Shown: one piece after another, positions 7,680 to 63,196 of the stretch
Layout: every line of letters starts with the position of its first letter
How positions within the stretch are numbered: position 1 is the first letter of the stretch
Origin: Candidatus Sumerlaeia bacterium
Lineage (GTDB): Bacteria > Sumerlaeota > Sumerlaeia > SLMS01 > JAHLLQ01
Assembly: GCA_019634695.1 (NCBI GenBank)
Contig: JAHCAW010000010.1
Span: 22,355 to 86,354 of the forward strand
Direction: 5' to 3'
Length of the DNA: 64,000 nucleotides
Notes under the pieces: model-generated
What the model was told of the DNA's origin: nothing
Databases searched by the model: none
Seen by the model: the letters and a program-made list of their open reading frames with translations, nothing else
Made by a program: the position numbers and the translations under genes

Positions 7680-7686
7680 CGGAACC

Positions 7687-43707: not shown

Positions 43708-43812
43708 AGTCTTGACTACACACATGAAGAAGACGAATGACAGTCTGTCTCCGCATGCAGGAAGGCCATGGATCGTGCTGCCGGGGATCCAGAACCGAGG
43801 ACTTGTGCCATC

Positions 43813-44767: not shown

Positions 44768-44944
44768 ATGGCCAAGAAGACCTCCGAAGAAGCATCCTCC
44801 GAAATGCTCGGCAGGAAGGCGCCTGCCTTTTCACTCCCCGACCAGAACGGCAAGGTCCACAAGCTCTCGGAATACAAGGGCAAGTGGGTGGTCCTGTTCG
44901 CGTATCCGAAGGATGACACGCCGTCTTTTGGTCTTACACAGTAG
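44768..44944 (+). pseudogene. bcp: 5' fragment of bcp (fragment B, codons 1-52) fused to element-end sequence
   Basis: The fragment reads MAKKTSEEASSEMLGRKAPAFSLPDQNGKVHKLSEYKGKWVVLFAYPKDDTP, then diverges (SFGLTQ*). By my alignment, 40 of the first 52 residues match the intact copy. It is under 60 aa and so absent from the ORF track. Confidence 0.85.
44901..44944. other. attL of the 18.3-kb element (core ACGCCG at 44918-44923)
   Basis: bcp homology ends exactly after GATGAC-ACGCCG. The element arm TCTTTTGGTCTTACACA follows. Confidence 0.7.
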
Positions 44945-47337: not shown

Positions 47338-47556
47338 TTGACCAGAATGCCAGACCAAAGATGGCTCTCAGTGCCTGAAGCCGCCGAGTACCTCGGGATC
47401 AAGCCGGACACCGTGTACGAGTGGATAGGCAAGAAAGGCATGCCTGCCCATCGAGTGGGGAGGCTTTGGCGGCTGGATGTGGAAGAGATCGACGCTTGGG
47501 TCAAGTCTGGGAAGGCGGGTGCGCCAGATGCCCAAGCCGAAGGAGAGAGCCATTGA
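47338..47556 (+). CDS. Excisionase-family (HTH_17/MerR-like) DNA-binding protein
   Basis: The product contains WLSVPEAAEYLGIKPDTVYEWIGKKGMPAHRVGRLWRLDVEEIDAWV. The likely ATG is at 47347. Its stop overlaps the helicase start. Confidence 0.8.
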   Translation: MTRMPDQRWLSVPEAAEYLGIKPDTVYEWIGKKGMPAHRVGRLWRLDVEEIDAWVKSGKAGAPDAQAEGESH

Positions 47557-50500
47557 ACAGCAGGACACTCCTCTCCGGCATCAGGGACAACCATACCCGC
47601 GGCTGCGTGGGCGACTACCTTCGCGATCAGGTGCAGCCGGGGTGCCACATGTCCGTGGTTTCGGCCTTCTTCACGGTCTACGCCTACGACCTCATGAAGC
47701 ACGAGCTAGACGCCATTGGCCACATGGACTTCCTGTTCGGGGAACCCCGGTTCATCACGCGCCTGGACCCCGACAGAACGGAGAAGAAAGCCTTCATCAT
47801 CGACGCAAGGGGCCTTCGCCTTGCCAACGTCCTTCAGCAGAAGCGCGTCGCTCGTGAGTGCGCTGACTGGATCAGGGCGAAGGTGGATGTTCGCTCGGTC
47901 CGTCAGCTCAACTTCCTTCACGGAAAGATGTACCACGTCTCCCGGAACGGCGTAGACCGCGCCATCATGGGTTCCTCCAACTTCACCCCGGCGGGCCTTG
48001 GGCTCTCCTCCGATGGTGGGAACATAGAACTCAACCTCGTCGTGGACAGCGACCGTGATCGGCATGATCTGAAGGCTTGGTTCGATGACCTCTGGAACAG
48101 CAGCGAACTCACCAAAGATGTGAAAGACGACGTTCTTCAATACCTCGCACAGATCTACCAGAATCACAGCCCTGAGTTCATCTACTTCAAGACCCTTTAC
48201 GAAATCTTCAAGTCGTACCTGGATGGAGCCGACAAGACGGACCTCGACCTGGGGCGCACTACGCTCTTCGATACCGAGATTTGGAAGACTCTCTTCGAGT
48301 TTCAGAAAGATGGCGCGAAGGGCGCGATCAACAAAATCCTCCGCCATAATGGCTGCGTTGTGGCTGACTCCACGGGTCTTGGCAAAACATTCCTGGCCTT
48401 GGCCGTCATCAAGTACTTCGAGCTGAAGAATGAGCGGGTCTTGGTCCTTTGCCCCAAGAAGCTCCGTGGCAACTGGACCGTCTACCGAAGCAATGATGTC
48501 CTGAACCCCTTTGATAAGGACCGCTTCAGATTCGATGTTCTTTCCCACACAGACCTGAGCCGCGACTCCGGCTACAGTGGTGACATCAATCTGGAGACCC
48601 TGAACTGGGCCAACTACGACCTCGTCGTGATCGATGAATCGCACAATTTCCGGAACAACCTTCCCGGCAAGAAGGACGAAGACGGCAACGTCATTAGGAA
48701 GAGCCGATACATGCGGCTCATGGAAGACATCATCCAATCGGGCGTCAGGACGAAGGTTCTTCTCCTGTCAGCAACGCCGGTAAACAACGATCTCAAGGAC
48801 TTGCGAAACCAGCTCTACTTCATCTCCGCTGGTGAGGATGACTATTTCGCCAACTCTGGTATTCCAGACCTGAAGGAAACCCTGCGTAAGGCCCAAGGGC
48901 ACTTCACTGCATGGTCGAAGCTCAAACCAGAAGAACGCAGGGTCTCAGAGCTTCTCAGCCGACTTGGCAGCGACTTCTTCAAGATCCTCGATGGACTCAC
49001 CATCGCTCGCGCCAGGAAGCACGTTCAGAAGTACTACTCCCATGAGATGGAGCGTCTTGGCAAGTTCCCCAAGCGGCTCAAGCCTCAAACGGAGAGTCCC
49101 GACATCGACGCCAAGGGTCGCTTCCTTCCCTATGATCGGCTCAGTGAAGAGATTGACCATTACAAACTCTCACTTTTCAAGCCTTCCACCTTCCTCAGGC
49201 CTGATTTGCCAAAGGAAGTCATGGACGAGTATACACGCCGCGTCGGCAACTTCACCCAGGCGCAACGCGAAGACTTCCTCATCGGCATGATGAAGGTGAA
49301 CTTCCTCAAGCGCCTGGAAAGCTCCGTCTACTCGTTTGCTCTCACCATGGAGCGGACCATCGACAAGATCGAAAAGCTTGAAGCTCGGCTGGAAAAGTTC
49401 CTTCGCCTTCAGGAAGACTTCCCTGACCTTGATTTGTCCGAAGTTCATCCGGAGGACCTCGCTGGCGAAGAAGACGATGAGGTCCGCGATGCCCTGGAGG
49501 TCGGCAAGAAGCTGCGTTACAAGGTCGCCCATCTCAACGTGGCAAAGTGGCTCCGTGCCCTGCATGAAGACAAGCAGCAGCTCAACCTTCTGTACATTCA
49601 GGCAAAGGACGTCACCCCGGACAGAGACCTCAAGCTACAACGCCTCCGTGAAATCATCAGCGCAAAGGTCCGCAATCCCCCGATCAACCGTGATGGCAAG
49701 CCGAACCGGAAAATCCTCATCTTCACTGCGTTCGCAGACACCGCACGCTACCTTTACGAGCACCTCAGTGAGTGGGCCATGGACGAGCTTGGCATTCACT
49801 CTGCGCTCGTTGTGGGCGGCGGTGGATGCCAGACGACCTATACGCCAAAGGGCTACTCCAGACAGGAAGAATTCGACCGCATCCTTACCAACTTCTCCCC
49901 CATGGCCAAGAAGCGCGACAAGATCGCGTCCATGCCTCAGGAAGGCGAAATCGATCTCCTGATCGGCACAGACTGTATCTCCGAAGGTCAGAATCTTCAG
50001 GATTGCGACACAATTGTAAACGCCGACATACATTGGAACCCTGTTCGTATCATTCAAAGATTTGGAAGATGTGACAGAATTGGATCTCGAAATGAAGCCA
50101 TCCAGCTTATCAACTTCTGGCCCACGAAGAACCTGGACAACTACATCAACCTCAAGCACCGGGTCGAAGCCCGCATGGCCTTGGTGGACGTTTCGGCCAC
50201 ACAGGAAGACAACCTTCTCCAGCAGGAACTGGAGGACCTCATCACCGAAGACCTTCGGATACCGCGATCGTGTCAACTCAAGCGGGCTTCGCGATGAGGT
50301 CTTGGACTTGGAGGATCTCGACGAGACCATCAGTCTGACCGAGTTCAACCTTGATGACTTCCGGATCGAATTGCTGAAGTTCTTGGAGGCCAATCGGCAG
50401 GCCCTTGAGGATGCCCCCTTTGGCTTGTATACCGTGGTGCCTTCGCTCTCCGACTTGGTGACCACGATCCAACCGGGCGTCATCTACTGCCTCCGCCAAA

Positions 50501-50898
50501 AGGCGAAATCCGTGGATCACTCCTCAGGCGAGAGGATCAACCCGCTGCAACCCTTCTACCTGGTTTATGTCCACAACGATGGCAACGTGCGCTTGAACTT
50601 CGTCCACCCCAAGCAGATTCTGAACCTCTATCGCCAACTCTGCTCCGAAAAGACGCTGCCTTACGACGAACTGTGCGCCCTCTTCGATCAGGAAACCCAA
50701 GACGGGCGCGACATGAGCCATTACGACAAGATCCTTCAGCGCTGCATCGACGCTATCGCGGCCACCTTCCAGAAGCGCGTTTCCACCAGCCTTCAATCTG
50801 ATCGGGGTTTTCTGATTCCTGAGGAAGACGATCAGGTCGACAATGAAGAAGACTTCGAGCTGGTGACCTGGCTTGTGATCAAGGGGGCCCATCAATGA
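47553..50898 (+). CDS. PLD-nuclease domain plus SNF2-family helicase/translocase, interrupted by a frameshift near 50,250
   Basis: The TTG start at 47553 lies 5 nt after AAGGAGAG. A single HKD motif reads HGKMYH...GSSNFT (47919 onward). Helicase motifs are ADSTGLGKT, VIDESHNF, LLSATPVNN and QRFGRCDRIG. Frame 0 stops at 50297, and the conserved tail (YRDRVNSSGLRDEVLDLEDL... to 50898) lies in the +1 frame. Confidence 0.85.
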
Positions 50899-53800
50899 GC
50901 CTGGAACAGCGCGAACGCATCCATGAAGCCCTCAACATCTTCACAACCTCCAGCCTCCTGGAGGCATCCCAGGGTCTCTTCGAGACCTTGGGCTACAAGA
51001 GCAAGCGTCGCCCCAAGCGCTGGAACTCGGCCCCAAGCCATTTCCTGAATCAGTACGGACAGGGCGAGCAGCCCCTCAACGAGAAGCGGGCGCTCTTCGA
51101 TCGCTGGAAGGCGGTGGAGATCCTCTTCCAGCTTGGTGATGAGGAAGTCCGCTCCGCCCTGGGATACGGCGAGGACCTTTTCGGTAGCGCAGGGGAGATC
51201 GACAACAAGCGCATCGAGAGCTACCTCTTCTTTGCCATCCAACTGGAGCCGAAGGGAGAGGGCCTCGCCTACACCCGCACCGAGCTTTCCAACGCCACCA
51301 GGGCCGTCAACGCCCTCTTCCCCATGCCCGCCATGCTTCTGTTCAAGCACGGCGAAACGATCTCCATCGCGGTCATCAACCGCAGGCTCCACAAGCGAGA
51401 TGCCTCGAAGGACGTGATGGAGAAGGTCACGCTCATCAAGGACATCGCCACGGCGGATCCCCTCAGGGCCCACCTGGAGATCCTGTCAGACCTCGGCATC
51501 CATGCCTTGGAAGACGAGTTCAAGTTCACCAACTTCGCAGGTCTGCATGCGGCCTGGGAAAAGCGGCTGGGAACCTACGCACTCAGCGAACGATTCTACC
51601 GCGAGGTGGCCGACTGGTACTTCTACGCCTTGGAGAAGAATCAGGACATCAAGTTCCCCCGGTCGATCGAGGAAATGGCCGACCGGACTGAGGAGCAGCA
51701 GGACGAGAAGAAGAAGCAGAAGTCCCTCTTCCTGATCCGTCTCCTGACCCGCCTGATCTTCTGCTGGTTCCTGCAAGAAAAGCGTCTGATCCCCCGCGAC
51801 ATGTTCCGCGAGCGTATCGTGAAGAAGCTGCTCAAGGACGCATCGCCCGCATCTGGAACCTACTACAAGGCCTTCCTCCAGAACCTGTTCTTCGCCACGC
51901 TGAACCAGGAGCAGGACAAGCGCGACTGGCGCAAGAAGTACAAGGGCAGCCGCGATGGCAATGTGGGCATCACCAACCTGTGGCGATTTGCCGATGACCT
52001 GAACGATCCTGCCAAGCTCGAAGCCATGCTTCGCGATCAGGTACCCTTCGTAAACGGCGGCCTGTTCGACTGCCTGGATGATCGATACACGAAAGAAGAA
52101 GCACTGCCAGACAGATTCCTGGACGGCTTCTCAGAGCGCAAAGACAACACCCTCCACCTGCCCAACGCCCTCTTCTTTGCCAAGGAGCGCACCGTCGATC
52201 TCAGCGATGTATACCATGACAAACGGCGTTCACGCGAAAAACTCTCCGGCCTGATCGACATCCTGAGCCGCTACAAGTTCACCGTCGAAGAAAACACCCC
52301 CCTCGAAGAGGAAATCGCTCTCGACCCCGAGTTGCTGGGCAAGGTCTTCGAGAACCTGCTCGCCAGCTACAACGACGACACCCAGACCACCGCTCGCAAG
52401 GCCCTGGGAGCCTTCTACACCCCGCGCTCGGTCGTCAGCTACATGGTGGATGAAGCCCTGTGCTGCTTCCTCGCCACCAAGGTCACCTCTACCTCTGCGG
52501 CCAAAGTCCGTCAGCTCATCCAGACCGTCCCTGGGGAATACGACCCCCACCAGCATTTCTCCCAGGACGAGATCAACACCCTGATTCAGGAAATCGGCAA
52601 GGTCCGCGTTCTGGATCATGCCTGCGGTTCCGGGGCCTACCTGATGGGTGCGCTCCACCGCCTGGTGGACCTGCTTCAAAAGCTGGACCCCAAGAACGCC
52701 GCCTGGAAGCAGGACAAGCTGAAGGCCGCCCAGCAGCTCCTGGATGATCGCCGCAAGGAAGGAGCCGACGAGGACGAGCAGCGGCAGCTCGAAGAGCGCA
52801 CCCAGGAGATCAAGCGCTCCTTCGACGAAGCTTTCCACGAGCTGGACTACGCCCGTAAGCTCTATCTGATCGAGGACTGCATCTACGGCGTGGACATCCA
52901 GCCCGTGGCCTGCCAGATCGCCAAGCTGCGCTTCTTCATCTCGCTGATCGTGGACCAGAAGGTGAAGCGCAAGAGCGCCAACCTGGGCGTGCGCCCCATG
53001 CCCAACCTGGAAACAAAGATCGTCGCCGCCAATGCCTTGCTCCCCATCGACTTCCCCCAGCTTGATCTCTTCTCCATGGGCAAGGTCGAGGACCTGCGTA
53101 AGGACCTGCTCCGAATTCGCCACGAGCACTTCGACGCCCGCACGCCCCAGCGCAAGAAGCGGCTGCGCGAGAAGGACAAATCCCTGCGGGCCGACATCGC
53201 GAAGTTCCTGAAGGAAAGCGGCCTCCCTTCGGCCAGCGCCAACGCCCTGGCGGGTTGGGATCCTTACGACCAGAGCGGCTTCGCCCCGTTCTTCGACCCC
53301 TCCTGGATGTTCGGCTTCACCCAGAAGGACGCTCTCTTCGATGTTGTCCTAGCGAACCCCCCTTACGTCCGCCAGGAGAAGATCAAGGATCAGAAAGCCG
53401 CGCTGAAGCCCCACTACACGCAGACCTACAGCGGCACGGCTGACCTGTACGTGTACTTCTACGACCGCGCCCTGCAACTCCTCAGACCCAACGGGGCGCT
53501 CTCGTTTATCACGTCAAACAGCTTCCTGAGTGCCGCATTCGCTGAAGGACTGCGTAAGACACTGGTCCGCGAAACGACCATTCAGTCGGTGATCGATTTT
53601 GGTGAGACGCCTGTCTTCACGGCCATTACAGAGCCTGCTATTCTGATCGCATCAAAGGCGTCGTCCAAGGACAATCAGGTCCGTGCCCTCCGGTGGGATG
53701 AGAAGCTTGATCCCAAGGACTTGAAAAGAACCATCGACGAAGAAGGGTTCTCTTTACCCCAGGCCACGCTGGGTTCCGAGATTTGGAAGATTGAGAAACC

Positions 53801-54812
53801 CCACATTCTGAAACTACTGAAACGTCTTGAGGAAGTGGGCACACATCTTGGACCTTTAGTAACAAGTCGTTTTTACAGAGGCGTTTTGACGGGGTTGAAC
53901 GAAGCCTTCGTAATCGACCAAGTCACCTATGAGCAGTTGGTCCGGGAGGATGCCAAGTCGTCAGAGGTGATCTACCCTTTCCTGCGTGGCAGGGATGTAA
54001 AGAGGTGGAGTGTCACTCAGCCAGAGCAGTGGCTTATCTTTACGCGAAGAGGCATCGACATTCGCCGCTATCCTGCAATTCATAAACATTTATCACAGTA
54101 CCGGGAGAAGCTGGAACCCAAGCCATCGAATTGGCCGAGTGGGAAGCCTTGGAATGGGCGCAAGACCGGAACTTACAAATGGTATGAGATTCAGGACAAC
54201 ATCGCGTATTGGGAGGAATTTGCTGAACCCAAAATCGTCTATCAAGACATCGCTCGGAGCTATGGCATGGCTTGGGATGAGAGCGGTGCGATGCTCGTCA
54301 ACACCTGTTATTTCATACCAGGTCAACGTCCATGGCTGCTCGGTGAGCTACTTTCTCCTGTGATTCGCTTTTGGGTCCAGAAGGTTCTCGGACACGATGA
54401 GGGTGGCTTCTTGCGCCTCTTCTCGGTTCATGTGGGCAAGTTCCCGATCGTTCCCCCCGAGCCGAAGCAGGCTGACTTGATGGATTCAATTGCCCGCATT
54501 CTGATTGAAGGAAACCGACATAAGGATCTGGAAGCGCGGGATACGATGATGCTCGGGTTCTACGAACAGATCCTAAACGCGCTCGTGTATGAACTCTACT
54601 TCACCGAAGACCTTCACCGCGGGGATCTCCATTTCTTCGATTTGGTAGAGAAGGCGACGATTCCCGATGTGACGGCCCTACCAGAGCAGAACCGAATCGC
54701 TGCCATGCGTGCAGCCTTTGAGCGTCTGTACGAACGCAGCCATCCACTTCAGGGAGCACTTCAGTCTCTGGAGAGCCTTGATGTTGTGCGGATGATTGAG
54801 GGGCGAACATGA
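50895..54812 (+). CDS. Eco57I/PglX-family gamma-class N6-adenine DNA methyltransferase with a TaqI_C-like specificity domain (1,305 aa)
   Basis: The start overlaps the helicase stop (ATGA). Motifs are GAFYTPR, VLDHACGSGAYL (motif I) and NPPY at 53355-53366. The C-terminal region KWYEIQDNIAYWEEFAEPKIVYQDI is typical of type IIG/PglX target-recognition modules. The N-terminal region of about 480 aa is unassigned. Confidence 0.9.
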   Translation: MSLEQRERIHEALNIFTTSSLLEASQGLFETLGYKSKRRPKRWNSAPSHFLNQYGQGEQPLNEKRALFDRWKAVEILFQLGDEEVRSALGYGEDLFGSAGEIDNKRIESYLFFAIQLEPKGEGLAYTRTELSNATRAVNALFPMPAMLLFKHGETISIAVINRRLHKRDASKDVMEKVTLIKDIATADPLRAHLEILSDLGIHALEDEFKFTNFAGLHAAWEKRLGTYALSERFYREVADWYFYALEKNQDIKFPRSIEEMADRTEEQQDEKKKQKSLFLIRLLTRLIFCWFLQEKRLIPRDMFRERIVKKLLKDASPASGTYYKAFLQNLFFATLNQEQDKRDWRKKYKGSRDGNVGITNLWRFADDLNDPAKLEAMLRDQVPFVNGGLFDCLDDRYTKEEALPDRFLDGFSERKDNTLHLPNALFFAKERTVDLSDVYHDKRRSREKLSGLIDILSRYKFTVEENTPLEEEIALDPELLGKVFENLLASYNDDTQTTARKALGAFYTPRSVVSYMVDEALCCFLATKVTSTSAAKVRQLIQTVPGEYDPHQHFSQDEINTLIQEIGKVRVLDHACGSGAYLMGALHRLVDLLQKLDPKNAAWKQDKLKAAQQLLDDRRKEGADEDEQRQLEERTQEIKRSFDEAFHELDYARKLYLIEDCIYGVDIQPVACQIAKLRFFISLIVDQKVKRKSANLGVRPMPNLETKIVAANALLPIDFPQLDLFSMGKVEDLRKDLLRIRHEHFDARTPQRKKRLREKDKSLRADIAKFLKESGLPSASANALAGWDPYDQSGFAPFFDPSWMFGFTQKDALFDVVLANPPYVRQEKIKDQKAALKPHYTQTYSGTADLYVYFYDRALQLLRPNGALSFITSNSFLSAAFAEGLRKTLVRETTIQSVIDFGETPVFTAITEPAILIASKASSKDNQVRALRWDEKLDPKDLKRTIDEEGFSLPQATLGSEIWKIEKPHILKLLKRLEEVGTHLGPLVTSRFYRGVLTGLNEAFVIDQVTYEQLVREDAKSSEVIYPFLRGRDVKRWSVTQPEQWLIFTRRGIDIRRYPAIHKHLSQYREKLEPKPSNWPSGKPWNGRKTGTYKWYEIQDNIAYWEEFAEPKIVYQDIARSYGMAWDESGAMLVNTCYFIPGQRPWLLGELLSPVIRFWVQKVLGHDEGGFLRLFSVHVGKFPIVPPEPKQADLMDSIARILIEGNRHKDLEARDTMMLGFYEQILNALVYELYFTEDLHRGDLHFFDLVEKATIPDVTALPEQNRIAAMRAAFERLYERSHPLQGALQSLESLDVVRMIEGRT

Positions 54813-56773
54813 GAATCTCCAAGATCACCGTCAATGACTTCCGAGCCTTCCCGCACGTGGCAACGTTTGATCTGACGGACGGAGCCAACTTGCTCGTCTA
54901 TGGCGAGAACGGCTCCGGGAAGTCATCTCTCTTTCAAGCTCTTCGTGAGTTTTTTCGAGCTGGCAGACAGCCGCCTCCTGCCTACTCTCAGTTCAAGAAC
55001 ATCTTCATCGCACCCGCGACCACTCCAACCGCTCCCGGAGACGGCCAGGTTTCGTTGGAGCTGATGGAAACAACGGGCTCTCCCGTGAAGAGGACGGTCA
55101 CCTGGGCTGAGGGCCGTCCAAGACCGCTGGATGATCCGACACTTTCGCGCTCGGACCGCGAACTGCTGGCAGACGCTGCGGCAAGATCTTCCTTTCTTGA
55201 GTACCGATCTCTTCTCAGGACCAACTTCGACCTCAAGACTCCGAACCAGCGACTCTTTGAGCTGGCAGTAAGTGTCCTTCTTGCCGATGTCCCTGCAACG
55301 TTACCTGGCAGAGGAAGAGTTCCTATCAAAACTCTCTGGAAGGCCCTCAATCAGGCCCCCCCTGGTCCCGGCGAACATTACAACACATCGCGCAAGAACC
55401 GTGTCGCCAATGCCGAACAAGAGTTCAACGTTGCCCTGAAAGGGATCCTCCCAGAGGTGCAGCAAGAGGCATCCAAGTATCTTGCCATGTTTGAAGGTGT
55501 GGGAATCGATCTCAAGATCGACTTCAATGGGCTACGTTTCGACCCCAGCAAACCACGTGACTGGAATCGACATTTCATAGGGCGTGAGCTGGATTTCAAA
55601 GTTTTGCTAAATGGTGAAGAGTTGTCGGAGTGGACAGAGTTCTTGAACGAGGCGCGGCTCTCTGCTCTTGCGCTGTCCTTGTACCTTGCAGGAGTGCGTC
55701 GAAGTGACTTTGGTACTTCGCCTGATCCATTGCGCCTGTTGGTTCTTGATGATGTGCTCATCGGTCTCGACCTCGGTAACAGAATCCCTGTTCTCAGGAT
55801 TCTTGAGCGCTACTTTCCCGACTACCAGGTCGTACTGCTGACTCATGACAGAGTGTGGTTTGAGATGGCACAAATCTCCTTTCAGGAGCCCGAGAACTGG
55901 ATCTCCTACGAAATGTACGCACGGGAAATGCGGGAGGGGGCAAAAATATTTGAAGCTCCCGTCATAAAGCCACCCATTGAGAAGATCAAAGAATTGGCGG
56001 GTCAGTATCTCCAGCTTGCCGAAAATGAACTGAATTCTGCCACGCCATCTCTGCGCACCGCCGCTTTTCATGCTCGTGTGGCTCTCGAAATCAAGCTGAA
56101 GTCATTCTGCGACAGGAAGGTACCCGTCCAGTTCAACATGAACCCAAGGTTGATTTCGGTGGACAATTTCATGGAAGCAGTTGAGGCGTTCCTGATCTCC
56201 ACAGGCCATGATGTCTTGGGGCTTTTTCATCTGCACCGAATCGAACTGTTCAAGAAGGGCGTACTGAATCCCTCTGCCCACTTTCATCCAGTCACTCTTT
56301 CTACTGACGAAGTGAAGGAGGCAATACGGGCAGTCAAGGAGCTTGAGCTACATAAGGAAACCACGAACTTCGCCCTGAAGGCGGAGCCGAAAACCCAGGC
56401 CGTTCCCACTGGGCATGACCCAACGGCTTGGACTCATGATGCTGCCTGTTGGGTGCGCGTTACCTTTGAAGTGGATCTGAGAAGATTCCTGAAAGACCGC
56501 GGAGGCAGGCTTCCCTTTACATACGTCCCGCCCCTCTGGCCGCTCAGTGAACTATGGGAAAGCGCCAAGGCGCGGATGAATGAACTGAATCCGACAGCCG
56601 CGCCTCCGGTGATTGCAGCGATCGAAGGCCACCGAAGCGTTCTTCTTGATGATTGGAGTTATGCACGGGTTTCGGGATTGAGCCTGAGCGACATCCAGAA
56701 CGCATGGGCTGCGCTGAAGGATCCCAGCTCCACGCCCACCAATGTAAAGACCATCCTGGCGACGTTCAACTGA
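54809..56773 (+). CDS. SMC/RecF/ABC-like ATPase (654 aa) with an uncharacterised helical C-terminal half
   Basis: The start overlaps the methyltransferase stop (ATGA). Walker A is GENGSGKSS, the signature-like motif is NEARLSALALSLYLA, Walker B is LLVLDDVLIGLD and the H-loop is LLTHD. Confidence 0.8.
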   Translation: MRISKITVNDFRAFPHVATFDLTDGANLLVYGENGSGKSSLFQALREFFRAGRQPPPAYSQFKNIFIAPATTPTAPGDGQVSLELMETTGSPVKRTVTWAEGRPRPLDDPTLSRSDRELLADAAARSSFLEYRSLLRTNFDLKTPNQRLFELAVSVLLADVPATLPGRGRVPIKTLWKALNQAPPGPGEHYNTSRKNRVANAEQEFNVALKGILPEVQQEASKYLAMFEGVGIDLKIDFNGLRFDPSKPRDWNRHFIGRELDFKVLLNGEELSEWTEFLNEARLSALALSLYLAGVRRSDFGTSPDPLRLLVLDDVLIGLDLGNRIPVLRILERYFPDYQVVLLTHDRVWFEMAQISFQEPENWISYEMYAREMREGAKIFEAPVIKPPIEKIKELAGQYLQLAENELNSATPSLRTAAFHARVALEIKLKSFCDRKVPVQFNMNPRLISVDNFMEAVEAFLISTGHDVLGLFHLHRIELFKKGVLNPSAHFHPVTLSTDEVKEAIRAVKELELHKETTNFALKAEPKTQAVPTGHDPTAWTHDAACWVRVTFEVDLRRFLKDRGGRLPFTYVPPLWPLSELWESAKARMNELNPTAAPPVIAAIEGHRSVLLDDWSYARVSGLSLSDIQNAWAALKDPSSTPTNVKTILATFN

Positions 56774-57618
56774 TGCGAAAAATGGCAGACCCCCTGAAGA
56801 TCGACCTCAGCTTCGGTCCCGCCACCTTGGACCTCAACACCCTGCGTCGTTGGTTCAAGGAAGCCCCTGTGCGCACGGTGGCCTACCGATTCCTGAAGGT
56901 CTTCAACGATCATGGGGTCAAGAATACACAAATCCAGCGACTGGTGCCTGAGGTAACCCTCGACAGAGTCACTGATCCGATAGCGCTCCTGCCCGCGCTG
57001 ACGAACGACGTGCTGACCAGGACGGCCAAGACCCTCGGGATTGAGCGTGCGTGGCTGGATGGCGTCCAGGAGCGCATGTACCGCCACCACGGCAGCTACC
57101 AAAATCCAGCGGCCTTTTTCGACGTCGTGAGGGGGCTGGAAAAGCCCTTCGTCGGGCACGCGTTGAGGGCGTACTGCATGGATCCGAATCTGGATATCCG
57201 AAAAGGTCGGCCGCAGCCGATTGTGTTGGTCTTCGCCGAAAAGATTTGTGACTGGGATGATGATGGTGAACTTCTGAGATTCATCCCCTTCACCGAGGAG
57301 TGGGACTGGGGCTACCCGAAGAGCCGCCTCCAGTTGAAGGCCACCATCCGCGCCTGCCATGACTACCTGGGCATCGCGGTCGTTCCCCTCTACCAGGTCG
57401 ACAGGAAGACCCTGAAGGACCTCTCCGAGGGCGAAGCCGTGCCACCTGACGTTCCCTGGAGCCGCGACGTCTCCCTGGAGGACTACGTCTTCTCACCAGA
57501 CGAAAGCCACGTCTCCAAGGAGTCCGAAGAGCTGGAGGCGGTCTTTTCTTGGATGAAGAGGATGAAGATGGAGGAACTGGCGAAAGCATCCGCGCATGAA
57601 GAGGACGGCTCACCATGA
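56773..57618 (+). CDS. Orphan protein (281 aa), no recognisable domain
   Basis: It overlaps the ATPase stop (TGATG) and the next gene's start (ATGA). The product reads MRKMADPLKIDLSFGPATLDLNTLRRWFKE... and has an acidic C-terminus. Confidence 0.55.
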   Translation: MRKMADPLKIDLSFGPATLDLNTLRRWFKEAPVRTVAYRFLKVFNDHGVKNTQIQRLVPEVTLDRVTDPIALLPALTNDVLTRTAKTLGIERAWLDGVQERMYRHHGSYQNPAAFFDVVRGLEKPFVGHALRAYCMDPNLDIRKGRPQPIVLVFAEKICDWDDDGELLRFIPFTEEWDWGYPKSRLQLKATIRACHDYLGIAVVPLYQVDRKTLKDLSEGEAVPPDVPWSRDVSLEDYVFSPDESHVSKESEELEAVFSWMKRMKMEELAKASAHEEDGSP

Positions 57619-59675
57619 CCAAGCTACATGTCGAAGTCAAACAAGACCACATCCAGAAGCTGACGTCTTCCGATCCCGTGCGAGCGATCGGTGAGCTGGT
57701 GTGGAACGCGCTGGATGCCGACGCCAGCCGTGTTGATGTGGAGTTTGAAATCGACTACGCCGGGGGCATTGAAGAGGTACGTGTCATCGACAACGGCAGC
57801 GGCATGACGATCGATGACGCCAGGTCAGGGTTCAGCAGCCTGGGTGGCTCATGGAAAGGACACTCCACCTACACGAAGCAGGGTAGACGCATCCTCCATG
57901 GCAAGGAAGGGAAGGGGCGGTTCAAGGCCTTTGCGCTTGGCTCTCCTGTTGAATGGACGACGCGTTTCCAATCCAACGGCCAGGTGAAGTCGTTCCGAAT
58001 CTTGGGCGAACTACCACACCTTCACGAGTTCGACCTGAGTGATCCCGCGCCTGCGGACATCGACAAGACAGGCACCGAAGTCAGAATCCTCAACGTCGCG
58101 GAAGGGCGAAGTGATCTGACAGGAGAGAGTGCGCGGCAGAAGCTGATTCAGCTCCTTGCGCCATACCTCGCGAAGTATCCAGGGATCGACATCTTCTACG
58201 GCGGAACCCGTCTCGATCTTGCCGAGGTGACCGAAGAGTATGAGCCTCTGGATCTCGAACCCGTAACGCTCGATGGCGGCACAACGATCGAGGCTGAACT
58301 GTCGGTGAGGATCTGGACGTTTCCGAACGACCGGAAGATCGCCCTCTGCGACGCGAAGGGCTTCACCTTGGCTGAGGCAACTTCGGGAAGAGGTGTGCGT
58401 GCGCCTGGGTTCAACTTCACCGCATACCTTGCGAGCGACTACTTCGTTGGCTTCCACGAGGCGGGCACCCTCCAGGTCAGCGAGATGTTCAGTGAGGATG
58501 AAGGGATTTGGAAGCTCATAGGCGCAGCCAGAAAGCGACTGAGCGGGTACTTCAGGGAGCGTCTTGCTGCACGAACTGCTGGGCTGGTTGACGAATGGCG
58601 AGCCCAGAAGATCTACCCCTTCAAGGATGAGCCCGCTGACGATGTAGAGAAGGCCGAGCGTCAGGTCTTCGACATCATGGCGCTCAACGTGAACCGGTAC
58701 CTTCCTGACTTCGACGAAATGGAGGTGGAAGCCAAGGGCCTCATTTTCGAGTGCCTGAGGGTTGCCATCGACAGTGGCGAAGAAACCACCAGAAGGCTAC
58801 TGAGCAAGATCACAAAGATTCCCAAGAAGACGCAGGAAGATCTGCTGGAGTTGATCGAGAAGACGGATCTGATTTCTGTCATCGAAGCGACCAAGGAGGT
58901 CTCGTCCCGGTTGGAGTTCCTGGCGGGATTGAGAACAATTCTTTTTGAACCTGAGGTCCGAGATAAGACCAAGGAGCGATCCCAGCTTCACCGCCTCTTA
59001 GCAAAGAACATCTGGGTTTTCGGCGAGCACTTCAACCTCACGGTGGACGATCAGAGCTTGACCGAGGTCCTGAAGCGTCACGAGGAGCTTCTGGGACGAG
59101 AACCCTCTGGCAAGGAAATCAATCGAGCCGATGGACGCCGTGGCATTGTGGATCTGATGCTCTCAGGTTTGGTTTCACCTTCAGATCTGGAACGACGGGA
59201 GCATCTTGTGGTGGAACTGAAGCGCCCGAGCGTGAAGCTGAAGAAGGCGGAGTACGACCAGATCCTCGACTACGCTCTTGCTGTGGTAAAGGACCCGGCA
59301 TTCGCGGGTACGGAGACCACATGGCACTTCTGGCTGATCGGTGACGAAGTTGATGAGTATGTGGAGAGGCGTCGCACCGAAGCCAACCGCCCCAAGGGAG
59401 CGATCTACATGGCGGACTCACCGAAGGTGGTTGTCTGGGCGAAGAACTGGGGAGAGATCATTCATGGATGCGAGACCAGGCTGCGGTTCTTCAAGGACAG
59501 GCTCAAGTACAGCCCGACCAAGGAACAGGGTATGGCCCACCTCTCCAAGGAGTACGCCAAGTACGTACCCCAAGTGGTCCATGACCTGGCTGGTAACGAT
59601 GCGGGACTGGAGGATGTGTCAGGCAGCGGGGACATTGGTGATAATGAGGAACCGGTGGAGCCTAAAGCCCCTTGA
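57615..59675 (+). CDS. GHKL (MORC/paraMORC-like, HATPase_c_3-type) ATPase fused to a C-terminal PD-(D/E)xK nuclease-like domain
   Basis: The Bergerat N-box is IGELVWNALDA and the G1 box is IDNGSGM (57789 onward), followed by HGKEGKGRF. The C-terminal motif is GRRGIVDLML...HLVVELKRPSVKL...QILDY (59151-59222), a D...ExK...Q pattern like DUF4263/Shedu-type nucleases. Confidence 0.75.
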   Translation: MTKLHVEVKQDHIQKLTSSDPVRAIGELVWNALDADASRVDVEFEIDYAGGIEEVRVIDNGSGMTIDDARSGFSSLGGSWKGHSTYTKQGRRILHGKEGKGRFKAFALGSPVEWTTRFQSNGQVKSFRILGELPHLHEFDLSDPAPADIDKTGTEVRILNVAEGRSDLTGESARQKLIQLLAPYLAKYPGIDIFYGGTRLDLAEVTEEYEPLDLEPVTLDGGTTIEAELSVRIWTFPNDRKIALCDAKGFTLAEATSGRGVRAPGFNFTAYLASDYFVGFHEAGTLQVSEMFSEDEGIWKLIGAARKRLSGYFRERLAARTAGLVDEWRAQKIYPFKDEPADDVEKAERQVFDIMALNVNRYLPDFDEMEVEAKGLIFECLRVAIDSGEETTRRLLSKITKIPKKTQEDLLELIEKTDLISVIEATKEVSSRLEFLAGLRTILFEPEVRDKTKERSQLHRLLAKNIWVFGEHFNLTVDDQSLTEVLKRHEELLGREPSGKEINRADGRRGIVDLMLSGLVSPSDLERREHLVVELKRPSVKLKKAEYDQILDYALAVVKDPAFAGTETTWHFWLIGDEVDEYVERRRTEANRPKGAIYMADSPKVVVWAKNWGEIIHGCETRLRFFKDRLKYSPTKEQGMAHLSKEYAKYVPQVVHDLAGNDAGLEDVSGSGDIGDNEEPVEPKAP

Positions 59676-59684: not shown

Positions 59685-60026
59685 TCAAACTGACCTGTGT
59701 TCCACGCATCGAGTTCCAACAAACCCAGGGGAAATGATCATCGTCGTACCTAGTTGACCGCAAACCTCGCAGATGCGTTCTGATCGCTTCATGGCTTCTT
59801 CTCGAATGGCGCGGGCCGTGGGGTGGCACTGGTCAGAGAAGTAGATCCTGATCGATCCGAGCTTCTCCTTCGATCTGGTGATGGCGGGTGCGTTGCTGTC
59901 GCGGCAACGCGCCAGCATCTCTGCGAACAAATCGTTCCATCCAGACCTGAATTCGACCCCCGGCCACCGCGGGTTGAAGAGGTAAAGATTTGCAGTCACA
60001 AGTTGTTCGAGTTCTTCGGACGTCAT
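59685..60026 (-). CDS. Small hypothetical protein with a C-terminal Cys pair (zinc-ribbon-like)
   Basis: The 113-aa product contains KEKLGSIRIYF...CEVCG...RCVEH. Its function is unknown. Confidence 0.45.
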   Translation of the reverse strand: MTSEELEQLVTANLYLFNPRWPGVEFRSGWNDLFAEMLARCRDSNAPAITRSKEKLGSIRIYFSDQCHPTARAIREEAMKRSERICEVCGQLGTTMIISPGFVGTRCVEHRSV

Positions 60027-60029
60027 AGC

Positions 60030-60377
60030 TCAGTCCACGTTCATGCTACAGCGAACACTGGTGCAGTTGCGGTCGAACCAGCCCCTGCGCATGACCACCG
60101 CCGACACGAAAGGGTAGCTGGGAGCAACGGGCTCCTCGGTGGGATCATGCACTTCCAGGAGCTTTCCATCATTTGAGATGAGGGCGATCTCGATCTGTGG
60201 CGGCAACGCTGCGATGTCGATGAAGTGGTACCCCACCGAAGGCCAGAAAAAGAGGACACCATGATCCTCGTTCACGTCGTAACTGAGGGCCACCTCCACC
60301 AGGAGGTGACCGGGATAGGCTACCACACGTGCAGGTGCGCCGCCGATGATGACCTCGTGAACACCTGTCCTCTTCAT
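60030..60377 (-). CDS. DUF192-like small protein
   Basis: The product contains HGVLFFWPSVGYHFIDIAALPPQIEIALISNDGKLLEVHD...AVVMRRGWFDRN, which resembles the DUF192 pattern, but the match is weak. It overlaps the integrase stop by 4 nt. Confidence 0.35.
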   Translation of the reverse strand: MKRTGVHEVIIGGAPARVVAYPGHLLVEVALSYDVNEDHGVLFFWPSVGYHFIDIAALPPQIEIALISNDGKLLEVHDPTEEPVAPSYPFVSAVVMRRGWFDRNCTSVRCSMNVD

Positions 60378-61357
60378 AGTACGATCCTCTTGGCTGCATT
60401 TTCCGCAAACACGGTTCCTGCCTGTATGTATGTGCGCAGAATGCGGAGGGATCGATGGCCGGTGCTTCTGGCGATTTCCCGCTCGGACGCCCCAGCCCTC
60501 GCGGCAGCGGTGCAGAATCCAGAGCGCAACGAATGGCCGGAGAATACTTCAGGATCCAATCCAGTAAGACTTGCGCGATCCTTGATAATGCTTGCGACGG
60601 CGTTTCCACTGAGCGCCTTTCCCGTCGGTGTGCCTCCACGACGAAAAGACTGAAATATCGGTCCATCAGTGATTCTTGCGGAGTTCAGGTAAGCAGCCAG
60701 AGCGAGCACTGGACAAGTCTCGGCTTTGTTGCCCATGGGGATCCCAACTTCCCTCCCGTGACCATCAGCGTCTGTTTTGGATTTTCTTATCAGGATCCGA
60801 AGGCCTTCTTCCTCGATATGTACATCACCAACACAAAGTGCAGCCAACTCCGACCTTCTGAATCCGCCCAGAAATCCCACCAGCAAGAGCGCTCGATCTC
60901 TGCGGCCCTTGGGGCTGTTGTCACAGGTGCTGACCAGTCCTCGCAGTTCCGCTACGCCGACAGCCTTTTTCCTTTTCGGCATCGTACCCTTGGTTCGCCG
61001 AATGCCTTTCAGTACATCCCGCACGATTTGGCTCTTTGTCGGCGTTTCCTGTCCCGCGGTCTTGTGGGCTTGGGAGATGGTCGCCAATCGCCTTTCGATC
61101 GTGGCGATGCTGACGCCACGTTCGGCAAGGTCGGTGATGTAGATGGCAAGCGTCGGTCCGTCTGAAGGCAGGCTTGCTCGTCCAGCTTGATCACACCAGG
61201 ACACAAAAAGTCTCCAGTCCGTCTTGTAGGCTCTCTTGGTATTAGCCGCTCTGGACTCCCCAGCATACTCACGTGCACGCTGGACAATCCGCAGAGACGA
61301 CTCCGTCTGCGGGATGGCGGCTGGGAGACTTTCCTGAGGAGCTTCGTCAGAATTCAT
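60374..61357 (-). CDS. Tyrosine recombinase / phage-type integrase
   Basis: An N-terminal SAM-like core-binding domain (AANTKRAYKTDWRLFVSWC) is followed by the catalytic residue contexts GFRRSELAAL, HSLRSGF and HRSLRILRTYI. Confidence 0.85.
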   Translation of the reverse strand: MNSDEAPQESLPAAIPQTESSLRIVQRAREYAGESRAANTKRAYKTDWRLFVSWCDQAGRASLPSDGPTLAIYITDLAERGVSIATIERRLATISQAHKTAGQETPTKSQIVRDVLKGIRRTKGTMPKRKKAVGVAELRGLVSTCDNSPKGRRDRALLLVGFLGGFRRSELAALCVGDVHIEEEGLRILIRKSKTDADGHGREVGIPMGNKAETCPVLALAAYLNSARITDGPIFQSFRRGGTPTGKALSGNAVASIIKDRASLTGLDPEVFSGHSLRSGFCTAAARAGASEREIARSTGHRSLRILRTYIQAGTVFAENAAKRIVL

Positions 61358-61375
61358 GGCCTGGCCTCCGATTAC

Positions 61376-61400
61376 CTGTGATAAGGTTCCATTATCACAG
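61376..61400. promoter_or_regulatory. Perfect 9-bp inverted repeat CTGTGATAA-N7-TTATCACAG between the two recombinase genes
   Basis: It lies 13 nt downstream of the serine recombinase stop (61413) and 19 nt upstream of the tyrosine recombinase ATG (61357). It could be an operator, a terminator stem or a recombination site. Confidence 0.4.
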
Positions 61401-61412
61401 CTTATTATTCAT

Positions 61413-63158: not shown

Positions 63159-63196
63159 CGTGGGTCCATCCCGCCGAGGAACCTGCATGGAGCCGT

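What the first reader, a model, noticed from the sequence alone, without database searches (positions are those of the whole stretch)
47338..59675. Translationally coupled six-gene defence-like operon with an unclassified gene set: HTH, PLD-SNF2 translocase, PglX/Eco57I-type methyltransferase, SMC/ABC-like ATPase, orphan protein and GHKL-ATPase/PD-(D/E)xK nuclease
Seen in the sequence: six same-strand ORFs abut or overlap by 1-4 nt. The junctions are helicase TTG 47553 with the HTH stop at 47554-56, ATGA at 50895, ATGA at 54809, TGATG at 56771 and ATGA at 57615. This argues for one transcription/translation unit, and it is the cargo of an integrative element. The motifs are unambiguous for a single-HKD PLD nuclease fused to an SNF2 motor, for a 1,305-aa NPPY adenine methyltransferase with a TaqI_C-like target-recognition region, for a Walker A/B plus signature ATPase, and for a Bergerat-fold ATPase with a D...ExK tail. 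Established knowledge: BREX needs PglZ/BrxC/BrxL, DISARM needs DrmA plus DrmB (DUF1998), and type I/III R-M systems need HsdS/HsdR or Res. None of these is present. The SNF2-then-methyltransferase order recalls DISARM class 1 drmD-drmMI, and the PLD domain recalls DrmC, here fused to the motor. Prokaryotic MORC/paraMORC GHKL ATPases were predicted by comparative genomics (Iyer, Abhiman and Aravind, 2008) to work within R-M-like operons, but to my knowledge such systems remain experimentally uncharacterised. Inference: this is a methylation-based self/non-self module (methyltransferase plus PLD-SNF2) coupled to a second ATP-driven sensing/effector module (ATPase, orphan, GHKL-nuclease).
Basis: partly seen in the sequence, partly recalled or inferred. 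Interest (0 to 1): 0.88.

Follow-up and report, generated by a model that had tools for sequence, protein, structure and literature searches.

The report
Composite restriction-like defence operon on mobile element
The six genes are real and tightly packed, but they are a stack of parts: a widespread, apparently unnamed three-gene restriction-like system (nuclease-motor, DNA methylase, ATPase), followed by a swappable add-on made of an unannotated defence-linked protein and a known type of stand-alone defence nuclease.

Summary
In detail: six same-strand genes with 1-4 nt overlaps sit on an ~18 kb integrative element, and all domain calls are confirmed. The proposed split into modules does not hold.

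- **Core.** The ATPase belongs with the PLD-SNF2 helicase and the Eco57I/PglX-type methyltransferase. Of 64 loci with ATPase relatives and full upstream flanks, 56 have the methyltransferase (or at least its TaqI_C domain) directly upstream, and 44 have the PLD-SNF2 gene. These loci span more than 10 phyla.
- **Variable slot.** The gene after the ATPase differs from locus to locus and is defence-like (GmrSD, McrBC, TIR, SIR2, Schlafen and others). None of the 80 loci carries the orphan or the GHKL gene.
- **GHKL protein.** It has the paraMORC3 architecture. Its relatives occur alone or beside other R-M enzymes. A protein with the same architecture, VcSduA, is an experimentally proven stand-alone defence.
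- **Orphan.** It belongs to a family of at least 700 clusters with no Pfam model. The only fusions found are to TIR, SEFIR, Schlafen and DUF4062.
- **Naming.** PADLOC 2.0 and NCBIfam 20 assign the triad to no named system. MANTIS/Gao_RL is the closest characterised analogue.
- **Damage.** The helicase here is frameshifted; a 99 % identical intact copy exists elsewhere.

The parts
47347..47556 (+). HTH_17 / excisionase-family small DNA-binding protein. Either an optional regulator or the element's Xis.
   Evidence: Pfam HTH_17 61.9 bits. TIGR01764 excisionase 66 bits. MAD1 65.6 bits, below its cut-off of 80. 100 % identical in L092. Found upstream of only 3 of 49 related helicase genes.
47553..50297 (+). 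PLD(single HKD)-SNF2 nuclease/translocase: N-terminal 914 codons up to a premature stop.
   Evidence: PLDc_2, SNF2-rel_dom and Helicase_C. PADLOC 'HKD+Snf2' 389 bits. 99 % identical to the intact 1081-aa L092 protein.
50257..50286 (+). Frameshift zone: three small insertions (+1, +2, +1 nt) relative to L092.
   Evidence: DNA alignment A2.
50258..50898 (+). C-terminal tail of the PLD-SNF2 gene, in the other reading frame.
   Evidence: ORF 50062-50898 matches the end of the HKD+Snf2 profile (positions 792-946) and the tails of homologous helicases.
50895..54812 (+). Eco57I/PglX-type N6-adenine methyltransferase (1305 aa) with a TaqI_C target-recognition domain. No nuclease domain detected.
   Evidence: Eco57I 129 bits, N6_Mtase, TaqI_C. 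Below all BREX PglX and MAD2 cut-offs. The region 53518-54547 (TRD) has no nucleotide similarity to L092, while the rest is about 93 % identical.
54809..56773 (+). SMC/Rad50-head-type ABC ATPase (654 aa) with short coiled-coil stubs and an unassigned helical C-terminal domain. Third core gene of the triad.
   Evidence: Pfam. Conserved Walker A, Walker B and H-loop. PDB profile hits to Rad50. AF2 model with Foldseek E = 1e-10. Context tallies.
56782..57618 (+). 'Orphan': member of an unannotated defence-associated domain family. An alternative start is ATG 56773.
   Evidence: No Pfam, PADLOC or NCBIfam hit. AF2 pLDDT 82.8, with no PDB fold match. 707 clusters found in the exhaustive search. Fusions to TIR, SEFIR, SLFN_AlbA_2 and DUF4062. 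Contexts.
57615..59675 (+). GHKL ATPase fused to a PD-(D/E)xK nuclease (paraMORC3 architecture, VcSduA-like). Swapped-in cassette.
   Evidence: HATPase_c_3. Invariant E27, N31, D59, G61, D513, E534, K536. HSDR_N_2 hits in 20 of 32 members. Relatives occur alone or beside other R-M enzymes. Replaced by other genes in L090 and L092.
59685..63188 (-). Element backbone: two small conserved ORFs, a tyrosine integrase (60374-61357) and a large serine recombinase (61413-63188).
   Evidence: Pfam. Conserved in L090 and L092.
45135..45472 (+). Left copy of the bcp (AhpC/TSA) repeat that marks the insertion site. The right copy is at 63222-63559.
   Evidence: Direct repeats D2 and D3, about 75 % identical, spaced 18087 nt apart. 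AhpC-TSA Pfam hit.

Best explanation
The locus is a layered defence island carried by an ~18 kb integrative element inserted in a bcp gene. It has three layers.

**Layer 1: a conserved three-gene restriction-modification-like system.**
- A PLD(single HKD)-SNF2 nuclease/translocase.
- A PglX/Eco57I-type adenine methyltransferase that carries the DNA-recognition (TaqI_C) domain.
- An SMC-head ABC ATPase that is always translationally coupled to the TaqI_C-bearing protein.

Inferred mechanism, by analogy with MANTIS/Gao_RL and BREX: the methyltransferase reads a short asymmetric motif, and the ABC ATPase gates or loads it on DNA. Modified sites mark self. Unmodified sites license the PLD-SNF2 enzyme, probably a dimer because each chain has one HKD motif, to translocate and cut.

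**Layer 2: a variable slot at the 3' end of the triad.** In this element family the slot starts with the 'orphan'. The orphan is an unannotated domain that is elsewhere fused to TIR, SEFIR or Schlafen effectors, so it is probably a sensor or adaptor.

**Layer 3: an exchangeable effector in that slot.** Here it is a GHKL-ATPase/PD-(D/E)xK nuclease of the paraMORC3/VcSduA type, which can act as a stand-alone ATP-controlled nuclease.

**Other points.** The HTH is an optional regulator or the element's excisionase. As assembled, the helicase is frameshifted, so restriction by layer 1 may be lost in this copy.

**Shown:** the gene content, the conservation pattern, the domain identities and the cassette exchange. 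**Inferred:** every biochemical step.
For: **The triad is conserved.**
- The closest ATPase homologues (46-47 % identity) lie in helicase-methyltransferase-ATPase operons with 4-nt overlaps and differing downstream genes.
- A genome scan gave 80 loci from more than 10 phyla.
- Of the 64 with at least 9 kb upstream, 56 have a methyltransferase or TaqI_C homologue abutting the ATPase, and 44 have PLD-SNF2 on the same strand.

**The ATPase is tied to the recognition domain.**
- In L017 the upstream partner is a TIR-TPR-TaqI_C protein. In L101 and L031 it is a stand-alone TaqI_C protein.
- Between the window and L092, the TRD and the ATPase have diverged together (ATPase 45 % aa; TRD with no nucleotide similarity), while the helicase is 99 % identical.

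**The downstream slot is variable.**
- 59 downstream ORFs fall into 47 clusters.
- They include GmrSD, McrB-like, RhuM, TIR, SIR2, YhcG, NucS-like, Schlafen, RecD-like and GNAT proteins.

**The GHKL protein is an independent unit.**
- Its relatives occur alone or after other R-M enzymes.
- Catalytic residues are conserved.
- paraMORC3 is defined in PMC2292703. VcSduA defends alone (PMC12137116).

**The orphan is defence-associated.**

**Mechanistic analogue.** MANTIS and BR type 2.
Against: - There are no experiments on any member of the triad. The mechanism is transferred from systems whose ATPase (DUF499 AAA+) and methyltransferase (DUF1156) are not homologous to these.
- The orphan keeps translational coupling to both neighbours in every element copy. 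It is 82 % nt identical to L092 while its flanks differ. This could mean it links layers 1 and 3 functionally.
- The GHKL C-terminal domain gives no SduA_C (DUF4263) signal. Equivalence with VcSduA therefore rests on architecture, not demonstrated homology.
- In about 20 of the 64 loci no PLD-SNF2 gene lies within 10 kb upstream, so the 'triad' is not universal.
- The helicase frameshift may make this copy non-functional.
Confidence: 0.7

Rival explanations
1. There are two modules, [methyltransferase + PLD-SNF2] for self/non-self marking and [ATPase + orphan + GHKL-nuclease] as a second ATP-driven sensing/effector unit. Together they form one six-gene system.
For: All junctions overlap. ATPase, orphan and GHKL are adjacent here.
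Against: - 0 of 80 ATPase loci carry the orphan or the GHKL gene, whereas 56 of 64 carry the methyltransferase/TaqI_C partner.
- No ATPase homologue was found in the GHKL-relative loci L001-L004; the annotated neighbours in L096-L098 are other genes.
- In L092 the same element has a GNAT protein in place of GHKL.
Confidence: 0.05
2. An integrated layered system. The orphan is an adaptor that physically couples ATP-dependent R-M motor enzymes (the triad here; type ISP or HsdR elsewhere) to a second, interchangeable nuclease or effector. The downstream effector is then triggered when the primary system engages, or fails on, foreign DNA.
For: - Orphan-family genes lie between a type ISP enzyme and GmrSD (L113) and after HsdR (L116).
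- They lie between the triad, or a Schlafen protein, and GmrSD-HNH, GNAT or GHKL.
- 4-nt overlaps are kept on both sides.
- The orphan is conserved while both flanks are exchanged.
Against: - Many family members are solitary (L099, L103, L107, L108).
- Some are fused directly to TIR, SEFIR or Schlafen domains with no R-M enzyme in the same protein.
- GHKL, GmrSD and Shedu nucleases work without such a partner in characterised cases.
Confidence: 0.2
3. A decaying locus. The frameshift is real and the PLD-SNF2 restriction arm is dead. The element then carries an orphan methyltransferase (epigenetic or anti-restriction role) plus an independent GHKL nuclease.
For: Three indels within 30 nt of an otherwise 99 %-identical gene give a premature stop.
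Against: - The window comes from a metagenome-assembled genome, and the indels sit in G runs and a GT repeat, which is typical of assembly or sequencing error.
- The truncated product would still contain the PLD and the full SNF2 core.
- All other genes are intact.
Confidence: 0.3
4. The HTH is the element's excisionase (Xis), and merely abuts the defence cargo, rather than being a regulator of the operon.
For: - Best curated hit is the excisionase family TIGR01764.
- The element has an integrase and a serine recombinase.
- The HTH is absent upstream of 46 of 49 related helicase genes.
Against: - Its stop overlaps the helicase start, and this is conserved in L092.
- Two distant triads (L049, L065) also have an HTH_17 gene just upstream.
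- MADS has an analogous MAD1.
Confidence: 0.4

Closest known systems
MANTIS (formerly Gao_RL / Gao_29; 'BREX-related type 2' of Rakesh and Krishnan 2026)
   Same: - An operon combining an N-terminal HKD/PLD nuclease fused to an SNF2-type motor, an N6-adenine methyltransferase that carries specificity, and a separate ATPase.
- The ATPase is needed for methylation, and the effector is a dimeric helicase-nuclease.
- These systems also have auxiliary nucleases appended (abstract).
   Different: - The ATPase here is an SMC/Rad50-head ABC ATPase, not a DUF499 AAA+.
- The methyltransferase is Eco57I/PglX + TaqI_C, not DUF1156.
- There is no DUF3780 (MtsB).
- The helicase scores 131 bits against the NF042964 cut-off of 1100.
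DISARM class 1 (DrmD SNF2 + DrmMI methyltransferase + DrmA/B/C)
   Same: Order SNF2 then Eco57I-like methyltransferase, with a PLD nuclease present. Partial DrmD and DrmMI profile hits.
   Different: - No DrmA and no DUF1998 DrmB.
- PLD is fused to the SNF2 protein instead of being a separate DrmC.
- DrmD scores 131 bits against a cut-off of 610.
BREX (PglX, PglZ, BrxC, BrxL)
   Same: A PglX-like gamma-class adenine methyltransferase plus an accessory ATPase. The locus acts as a hotspot for embedded type IV nucleases.
   Different: No PglZ, BrxC, BrxA/B or BrxL. PglX models score 81 bits or less against cut-offs of 400 or more.
VcSduA / Shedu type I-D / paraMORC3 (for the GHKL gene)
   Same: - N-terminal GHKL with a catalytic Glu at position 27, a middle domain, and a C-terminal PD-(D/E)xK nuclease with D...ExK.
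- About 650-690 aa.
- Often a stand-alone gene.
   Different: - No SduA_C/DUF4263 signal in 32 family members. Weak HSDR_N_2 hits instead.
- hhalign against one true Shedu protein is negative.
- Direct comparison with the VcSduA sequence was not possible.
PbeABCD / CxC-ABC ATPase systems
   Same: An HKD-SF2 helicase combined with an ABC ATPase, sometimes with methylases.
   Different: - Those ATPases have long coiled coils with a Zn hook and pair with a DndE-like protein.
- Their methylases are C5/N4.
- PbeA and PbeC hits here are only 20-30 bits.
MADS
   Same: HTH + methyltransferase + ABC-type ATPase at the start of the operon. Weak mad1 and mad3 hits.
   Different: MAD6-8, which are mandatory in the published model, are absent. 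MAD1 and MAD2 scores are below cut-off.

Membership tests
DISARM class 1 | DrmA helicase and DrmB (DUF1998) present | tested here: not met
   No such domains in any of the six proteins or in the other element ORFs scanned. There is only a weak DrmA-profile hit on the SNF2 core.
DISARM class 1 | DrmD equivalog score | tested here: not met
   NF038317 scores 130.6 bits against a cut-off of 610.
BREX | PglZ, BrxC and (BrxL or equivalent) in the locus | tested here: not met
   No hits.
BREX | PglX equivalog score | tested here: not met
   Best is NF033452 at 81.2 bits against a cut-off of 500.
MANTIS / Gao_RL / BR type 2 | DUF499 AAA+ ATPase, DUF3780, DUF1156 methyltransferase | tested here: not met
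   Pfam finds none of these. The ATPase is an SMC-head ABC type.
MANTIS / Gao_RL / BR type 2 | PLD-helicase effector of the NF042964 family | tested here: not met
   130.9 bits against a cut-off of 1100. The architecture (N-terminal HKD + SNF2) is the same.
MADS | MAD6, MAD7 and MAD8 (mandatory in the authors' model) | tested here: not met
   No PADLOC or NCBIfam hits to them. MAD1 65.6 < 80 and MAD2 31 < 720.
Hma / BR type 1 | SNF2 with C-terminal PD-(D/E)xK, m5C methyltransferase, DUF499 ATPase | tested here: not met
   The HmaA hit is partial (79 bits). The methyltransferase is N6A with NPPY. There is no DUF499.
Type I / III R-M | HsdS/HsdR or Res/Mod subunits | tested here: not met
   Only a generic ResIII helicase-core hit.
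Type IIG R-M (single-chain nuclease-methyltransferase) | Nuclease domain in the methyltransferase chain | tested here: inconclusive
   PADLOC IIG models align only from residue ~441 onward. The N-terminal 250 aa give only a weak DUF4391 hit. No nuclease motif was identified, but no structure was modelled.
paraMORC3 (Iyer, Abhiman, Aravind 2008) | GHKL with ATP-binding motifs plus a C-terminal RE-fold domain with a D-ExK motif | tested here: met
   Invariant E27, N31, D59, G61, D513, E534, K536. HSDR_N_2 (PDDEXK clan) hits in 20 of 32 members. Family definition.
paraMORC3 | S5-fold middle domain | not tested
   No structure model was made for this protein.
Shedu (type I-D, VcSduA) | SduA_C / DUF4263 nuclease domain | tested here: not met
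   No PF14082 hit at E <= 0.05 in 32 members. hhalign probability 0.17 against a true SduA_C protein. No Shedu chain among the PDB profile hits.
Shedu (type I-D, VcSduA) | Protects as a single gene | not testable with these tools
   Stand-alone genomic occurrences (L001, L002, L098) are consistent with this.
PbeABCD / CxC-ABC systems | ABC ATPase with long coiled coil and Zn hook, plus a DndE-like partner | tested here: not met
   The AF2 model shows only short helical stubs (residues 193-225 and 281-298). There is no DndE-like gene.

The most novel reading that the evidence does not exclude
Two previously unnamed modules are present.

1. A portable 'TaqI_C recognition domain + SMC-head ABC ATPase' pair acts as an ATP-gated DNA-sequence sensor. 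With a PglX-like methyltransferase and a PLD-SNF2 nuclease it forms a widespread restriction-like defence family, distinct from BREX, DISARM and MANTIS. It can instead be wired to TIR-TPR effectors.
2. The 'orphan' defines a new defence-associated domain family of at least 700 clusters. The family is either fused to TIR, SEFIR, Schlafen or DUF4062, or is inserted between ATP-dependent R-M enzymes and type IV/Shedu-like nucleases. It acts as a sensor or coupler for second-line effectors.
Probability: 0.4. Interest if true: 0.75.

Novelty: new variant of a known kind. Interest (0 to 1): 0.6.

Why it matters
- **A new test case for ATPases in methylation-based defence.** BREX, MANTIS and MADS all raise the same open question: why do these systems need extra ATPases? 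This triad uses a different ATPase fold (SMC/Rad50 head). The ATPase always sits next to the recognition domain and co-varies with it. That gives an independent, widespread system in which to test ATP-gated target recognition.
- **A concrete view of layered immunity.** The locus shows primary R-M-like systems acting as docking sites for exchangeable second-line nucleases.
- **A family that needs annotation.** The orphan family has no Pfam or PADLOC model and has only immune fusion partners. It is a clear candidate for annotation and experiment.

Tried and rejected
- **PADLOC model 'C3a139 HKD+Snf2'.** It is only a type III CRISPR accessory cluster from Shah 2018, not a named system.
- **Named systems.** MADS, Hma, BREX, DISARM, MANTIS and Pbe all fail their membership tests.
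- **Literature.** Searches for a named PLD-SNF2 / PglX-like / ABC-ATPase system found none. The Krishnan 2020 ABC-ATPase classification (PMC7544218) and Gu 2025 on Shedu (PMC11805627) are not held, so a prior description there cannot be excluded.
- **VcSduA sequence.** The supplementary table holding it was truncated, so no direct comparison was possible.
- **Shedu relationship of the GHKL C-terminus.** Negative by Pfam and hhalign.
- **Orphan fold.** No PDB match. There are only weak local XRE-HTH-like matches in BFVD.
- **Promoter and terminator scan.** No more sites than expected by chance, so it is uninformative about operon boundaries.
- **tRNA attachment site.** None found.
- **HTH as a conserved member.** Rejected: present in 3 of 49 loci.
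- **Metagenome scan.** A narrower alignment, A7, worked.
- **Plasmid collection.** It holds only one ATPase relative.

Full report
**1. The observation**

The six ORFs are present as described.
- HTH: 47347-47556.
- PLD-SNF2: 47553-50297, with a tail that runs to 50898 in another frame.
- Methyltransferase: 50895-54812.
- ATPase: 54809-56773.
- 'Orphan': 56773 or 56782 to 57618.
- GHKL protein: 57615-59675.

The junctions were read directly.
- The helicase TTG (47553) overlaps the HTH stop TGA (47554-56).
- There are ATGA overlaps at 50895, 54809 and 57615.
- At 56771 the sequence is TGATG.
- The orphan more likely starts at ATG 56782. Its homologues and the public gene call begin at MxDP.
- The helicase TTG start is supported, because relatives at 58-64 % identity align from residue 5-8.

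Source and setting.
- The window comes from a Candidatus Sumerlaeia metagenome-assembled genome.
- GC falls from 0.68 to 0.55-0.59 from about 43 kb to the window end.
- About 340 nt of a bcp (AhpC/TSA) gene are repeated at 45135-45472 and 63222-63559.
- Between the repeats lie a Rep-like gene, the operon, two small conserved ORFs, a tyrosine integrase and a large serine recombinase.
- The operon is therefore cargo of an ~18 kb integrative element.

**2. Domain calls**

- PLDc_2, SNF2-rel_dom and Helicase_C in the helicase.
- Eco57I, N6_Mtase and TaqI_C in the methyltransferase.
- SMC_N, AAA_15 and AAA_23 in the ATPase.
- HATPase_c_3 in the GHKL protein.

Further support.
- A confident AF2 model of the ATPase (pLDDT 82.7) matches cohesin, SMC and Rad50 heads at E = 1e-10. 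It has only short coiled-coil stubs and an unassigned helical C-terminal domain.
- In 32 GHKL homologues E27, N31, D59, G61, D513, E534 and K536 are invariant.
- 20 of the 32 give weak hits to the PD-(D/E)xK family HSDR_N_2.

**3. The frameshift**

A metagenomic contig (L092) carries the same element.
- Its HTH is 100 % identical, and its helicase is 99 % identical and intact at 1081 aa.
- Against it the window has three insertions within 30 nt: G at 50257, GT at 50270-71 and G at 50284.
- The first two compensate each other. The third causes the stop at 50295-97.
- The insertions sit in short runs, so an assembly error is as likely as real decay.

**4. What belongs together**

Close ATPase homologues.
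- The closest homologues (46-47 % identity) lie in operons of PLD-SNF2, Eco57I methyltransferase and ATPase, with the same 4-nt overlaps.
- What follows the ATPase differs: McrBC in Geomobilimonas, nothing in a second genome, GmrSD in a third.

The genome scan.
- A scan of one genome per species with an ATPase alignment returned 80 loci.
- They come from Proteobacteria, Desulfobacterota, Cyanobacteria, Bacteroidota, Acidobacteriota, Chlorobi, Verrucomicrobia, Planctomycetes, Chloroflexi, Poribacteria, Latescibacteria and others.
- Of the 64 loci with at least 9 kb upstream, 56 have a methyltransferase homologue ending at the ATPase start.
- 44 have a PLD-SNF2 gene upstream on the same strand.
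- None of the 80 has an orphan or GHKL homologue.

The tightest link is between the ATPase and the recognition domain.
- In Poribacteria the overlapping upstream protein is TIR-TPR-TaqI_C.
- In Nostoc it is a 338-aa TaqI_C protein.
- Between the window and L092 the methyltransferase TRD (53518-54547) and the ATPase have diverged (ATPase 45 % aa). The helicase and the catalytic part of the methyltransferase are 93-99 % identical.

**5. The slot after the ATPase**

- The next co-directional ORF falls into 47 clusters for 59 loci.
- Where it can be annotated it is a defence gene: GmrSD, McrB-like AAA_5, RhuM, RecD/UvrD-like helicases, NucS-like/DUF5655, TIR, YhcG PDDEXK, DUF3800, Schlafen-AlbA_2/HATPase_c_4, SIR2_2 or GNAT.
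- This resembles the auxiliary or embedded effectors described for BREX-related and Hma loci.

**6. The GHKL protein**

- Its family has more than 1300 hits at about 40 % identity over the full length.
- Members occur alone (L001, L002, Streptomyces SAP1), directly after an unrelated 1376-aa Eco57I methyltransferase (Rhizomicrobium), or overlapping a type ISP enzyme on a Phaeobacter plasmid.
- The architecture is that of paraMORC3 as defined by Iyer et al. 2008, who already noted stand-alone members.
- VcSduA of Vibrio cholerae has the same architecture. It protects as a single gene, and E27A and K557A mutations abolish protection.
- I could not show homology of the nuclease domain to Shedu's SduA_C.
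- I therefore file the protein as paraMORC3-type and VcSduA-like in operation, not as proven Shedu.
- In sister elements the segment between the orphan and the conserved backbone ORF holds other genes: a 57-aa ORF plus a GNAT protein in L092 and L100, and a 336-aa unknown in L090. The GHKL gene is thus an exchanged cassette.

**7. The 'orphan'**

Family size and fusions.
- The word-indexed search found 12 relatives.
- The exhaustive profile search found 707 clusters at 50 % identity, 155 of them below 1e-30.
- Among the best 150, the only Pfam domains anywhere are N-terminal TIR_2 (5), SLFN_AlbA_2 (4), DUF4062 (2) and SEFIR (1).
- The SEFIR fusion matches the bSEFIR model only in its SEFIR part.

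Structure.
- The AF2 model is confident (pLDDT 82.8, pTM 0.79).
- It has no PDB match at E <= 0.001.
- Its N-terminal helices resemble XRE-type HTH domains only weakly.

Contexts.
- After the triad ATPase: the window and L092.
- Between a Schlafen/HATPase_c_4 protein and a GmrSD_N-HNH protein: L094.
- After an EVE protein: L090.
- Alone: L099, L103, L107.
- Between a type ISP enzyme and GmrSD: L113.
- After HsdR: L116.
- Directly before a canonical Shedu gene: L105.

Reading. It is a defence-associated domain, probably a sensor or coupler. It is not tied to the triad ATPase or to the GHKL protein.

**8. Known systems**

- NCBIfam release 20 (June 2026) and PADLOC-DB 2.0 assign none of the triad proteins to a named family. 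Every equivalog hit is several-fold below its cut-off.
- The strong PADLOC helicase hit is a CRISPR type III accessory cluster.
- The membership tests rule out BREX, DISARM, MADS, Hma, Pbe and type I/III R-M.
- The closest characterised system is MANTIS/Gao_RL. Its parts are a DUF499 AAA+ ATPase, MtsB, a DUF1156 methyltransferase and a dimeric PLD-helicase. The ATPase loads the methyltransferase on DNA, and restriction depends on site orientation.
- The triad has the same logic but a non-homologous ATPase and methyltransferase.
- Literature searches found no name for it.

**9. Mechanism (inference)**

- The methyltransferase's TaqI_C domain reads a motif.
- The ABC ATPase dimer, coupled to that domain, gates binding or methylation.
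- Unmodified sites recruit the PLD-SNF2 enzyme. It must pair to form one HKD active site, and then translocates and cuts.
- The orphan and the GHKL nuclease add a second, independently acquired layer.
- The HTH is either a regulator or the element's Xis. It is found in 3 of 49 loci, and its best curated hit is the excisionase family.

**10. Verdict**

- The locus is a composite of (a) an unnamed but widespread variant of ATP-dependent R-M-like defence, (b) an unannotated defence-associated domain protein, and (c) a member of a known stand-alone nuclease class.
- Interest is moderate to high. It rests on the TaqI_C-ABC ATPase coupling and on the orphan family, not on the six-gene set as a unit.

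Noticed in passing
window 43565-43714, 44783-44930, 45000-45147 (and 63222-63559): Three diverged copies of the 5' part of a bcp (AhpC/TSA) gene lie in tandem upstream of the element, and another bcp copy lies at its far end. This suggests bcp is a repeatedly used integration site with remnants of earlier insertions, including a SAM methyltransferase gene at 43768-44655.
   Followed up: partly
window 53518-56773 versus L092 6647-10004: The methyltransferase TRD and the whole ATPase have been replaced or have diverged together (ATPase 45 % aa). The flanking helicase (99 %) and orphan (74 % aa, 82 % nt) remain similar. This indicates block exchange of a specificity + ATPase unit.
   Followed up: partly
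L017 6687-11425; L101 9988-12434; L031 8934-11434: Here the ATPase family is coupled, by a 4-nt overlap, to non-methyltransferase proteins that end in a TaqI_C domain. These are a TIR-TPR-TaqI_C protein in Poribacteria and ~340-aa stand-alone TaqI_C proteins in Nostoc. The conserved pair is therefore TaqI_C + ABC ATPase.
   Followed up: partly
P0267, P0270, P0273, P0306, P0313, P0383, P0390; L109 7879-9765: The orphan domain occurs as the C-terminal half of proteins whose N-terminus is TIR, SEFIR, Schlafen-AlbA_2 or DUF4062. No Pfam or PADLOC model covers the domain.
   Followed up: yes
L105 8953-11018; L113 3753-11454; L116 706-4922: Distant orphan-family genes sit directly before a canonical Shedu gene, between a type ISP R-M enzyme and a GmrSD-like gene, and directly after a type I HsdR.
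   Followed up: partly
L094 5592-6281 and L065, L072, L077, L080, L086: In some triads extra genes are inserted between the methyltransferase and the ATPase. One example is a 229-aa protein with no Pfam hit.
   Followed up: no
window 60374-63188 (-); L090, L092, L100: The element family carries both a tyrosine integrase and a large serine recombinase side by side, together with two small conserved ORFs (59685-60377). Which recombinase mobilises the element is unclear.
   Followed up: no
window 45619-46629: A 336-aa ORF at the left end of the element gives a marginal hit to the rolling-circle Rep family REP_ORF2-G2P (26.8 bits against a cut-off of 27.8).
   Followed up: no
window 30834-36968: A 2044-aa ORF with a subtilase (Peptidase_S8) domain and a beta-helix region coincides with a local GC dip at 33-35 kb. 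It is unrelated to the finding.
   Followed up: no
L096 (Phaeobacter pGal_E78) 2055-10116: A type ISP R-M enzyme, a GHKL-nuclease homologue (4-nt overlap) and a 374-aa hypothetical protein with no Pfam hit form an apparent operon on a conjugative plasmid. This is another example of the GHKL nuclease docked to an R-M enzyme.
   Followed up: partly
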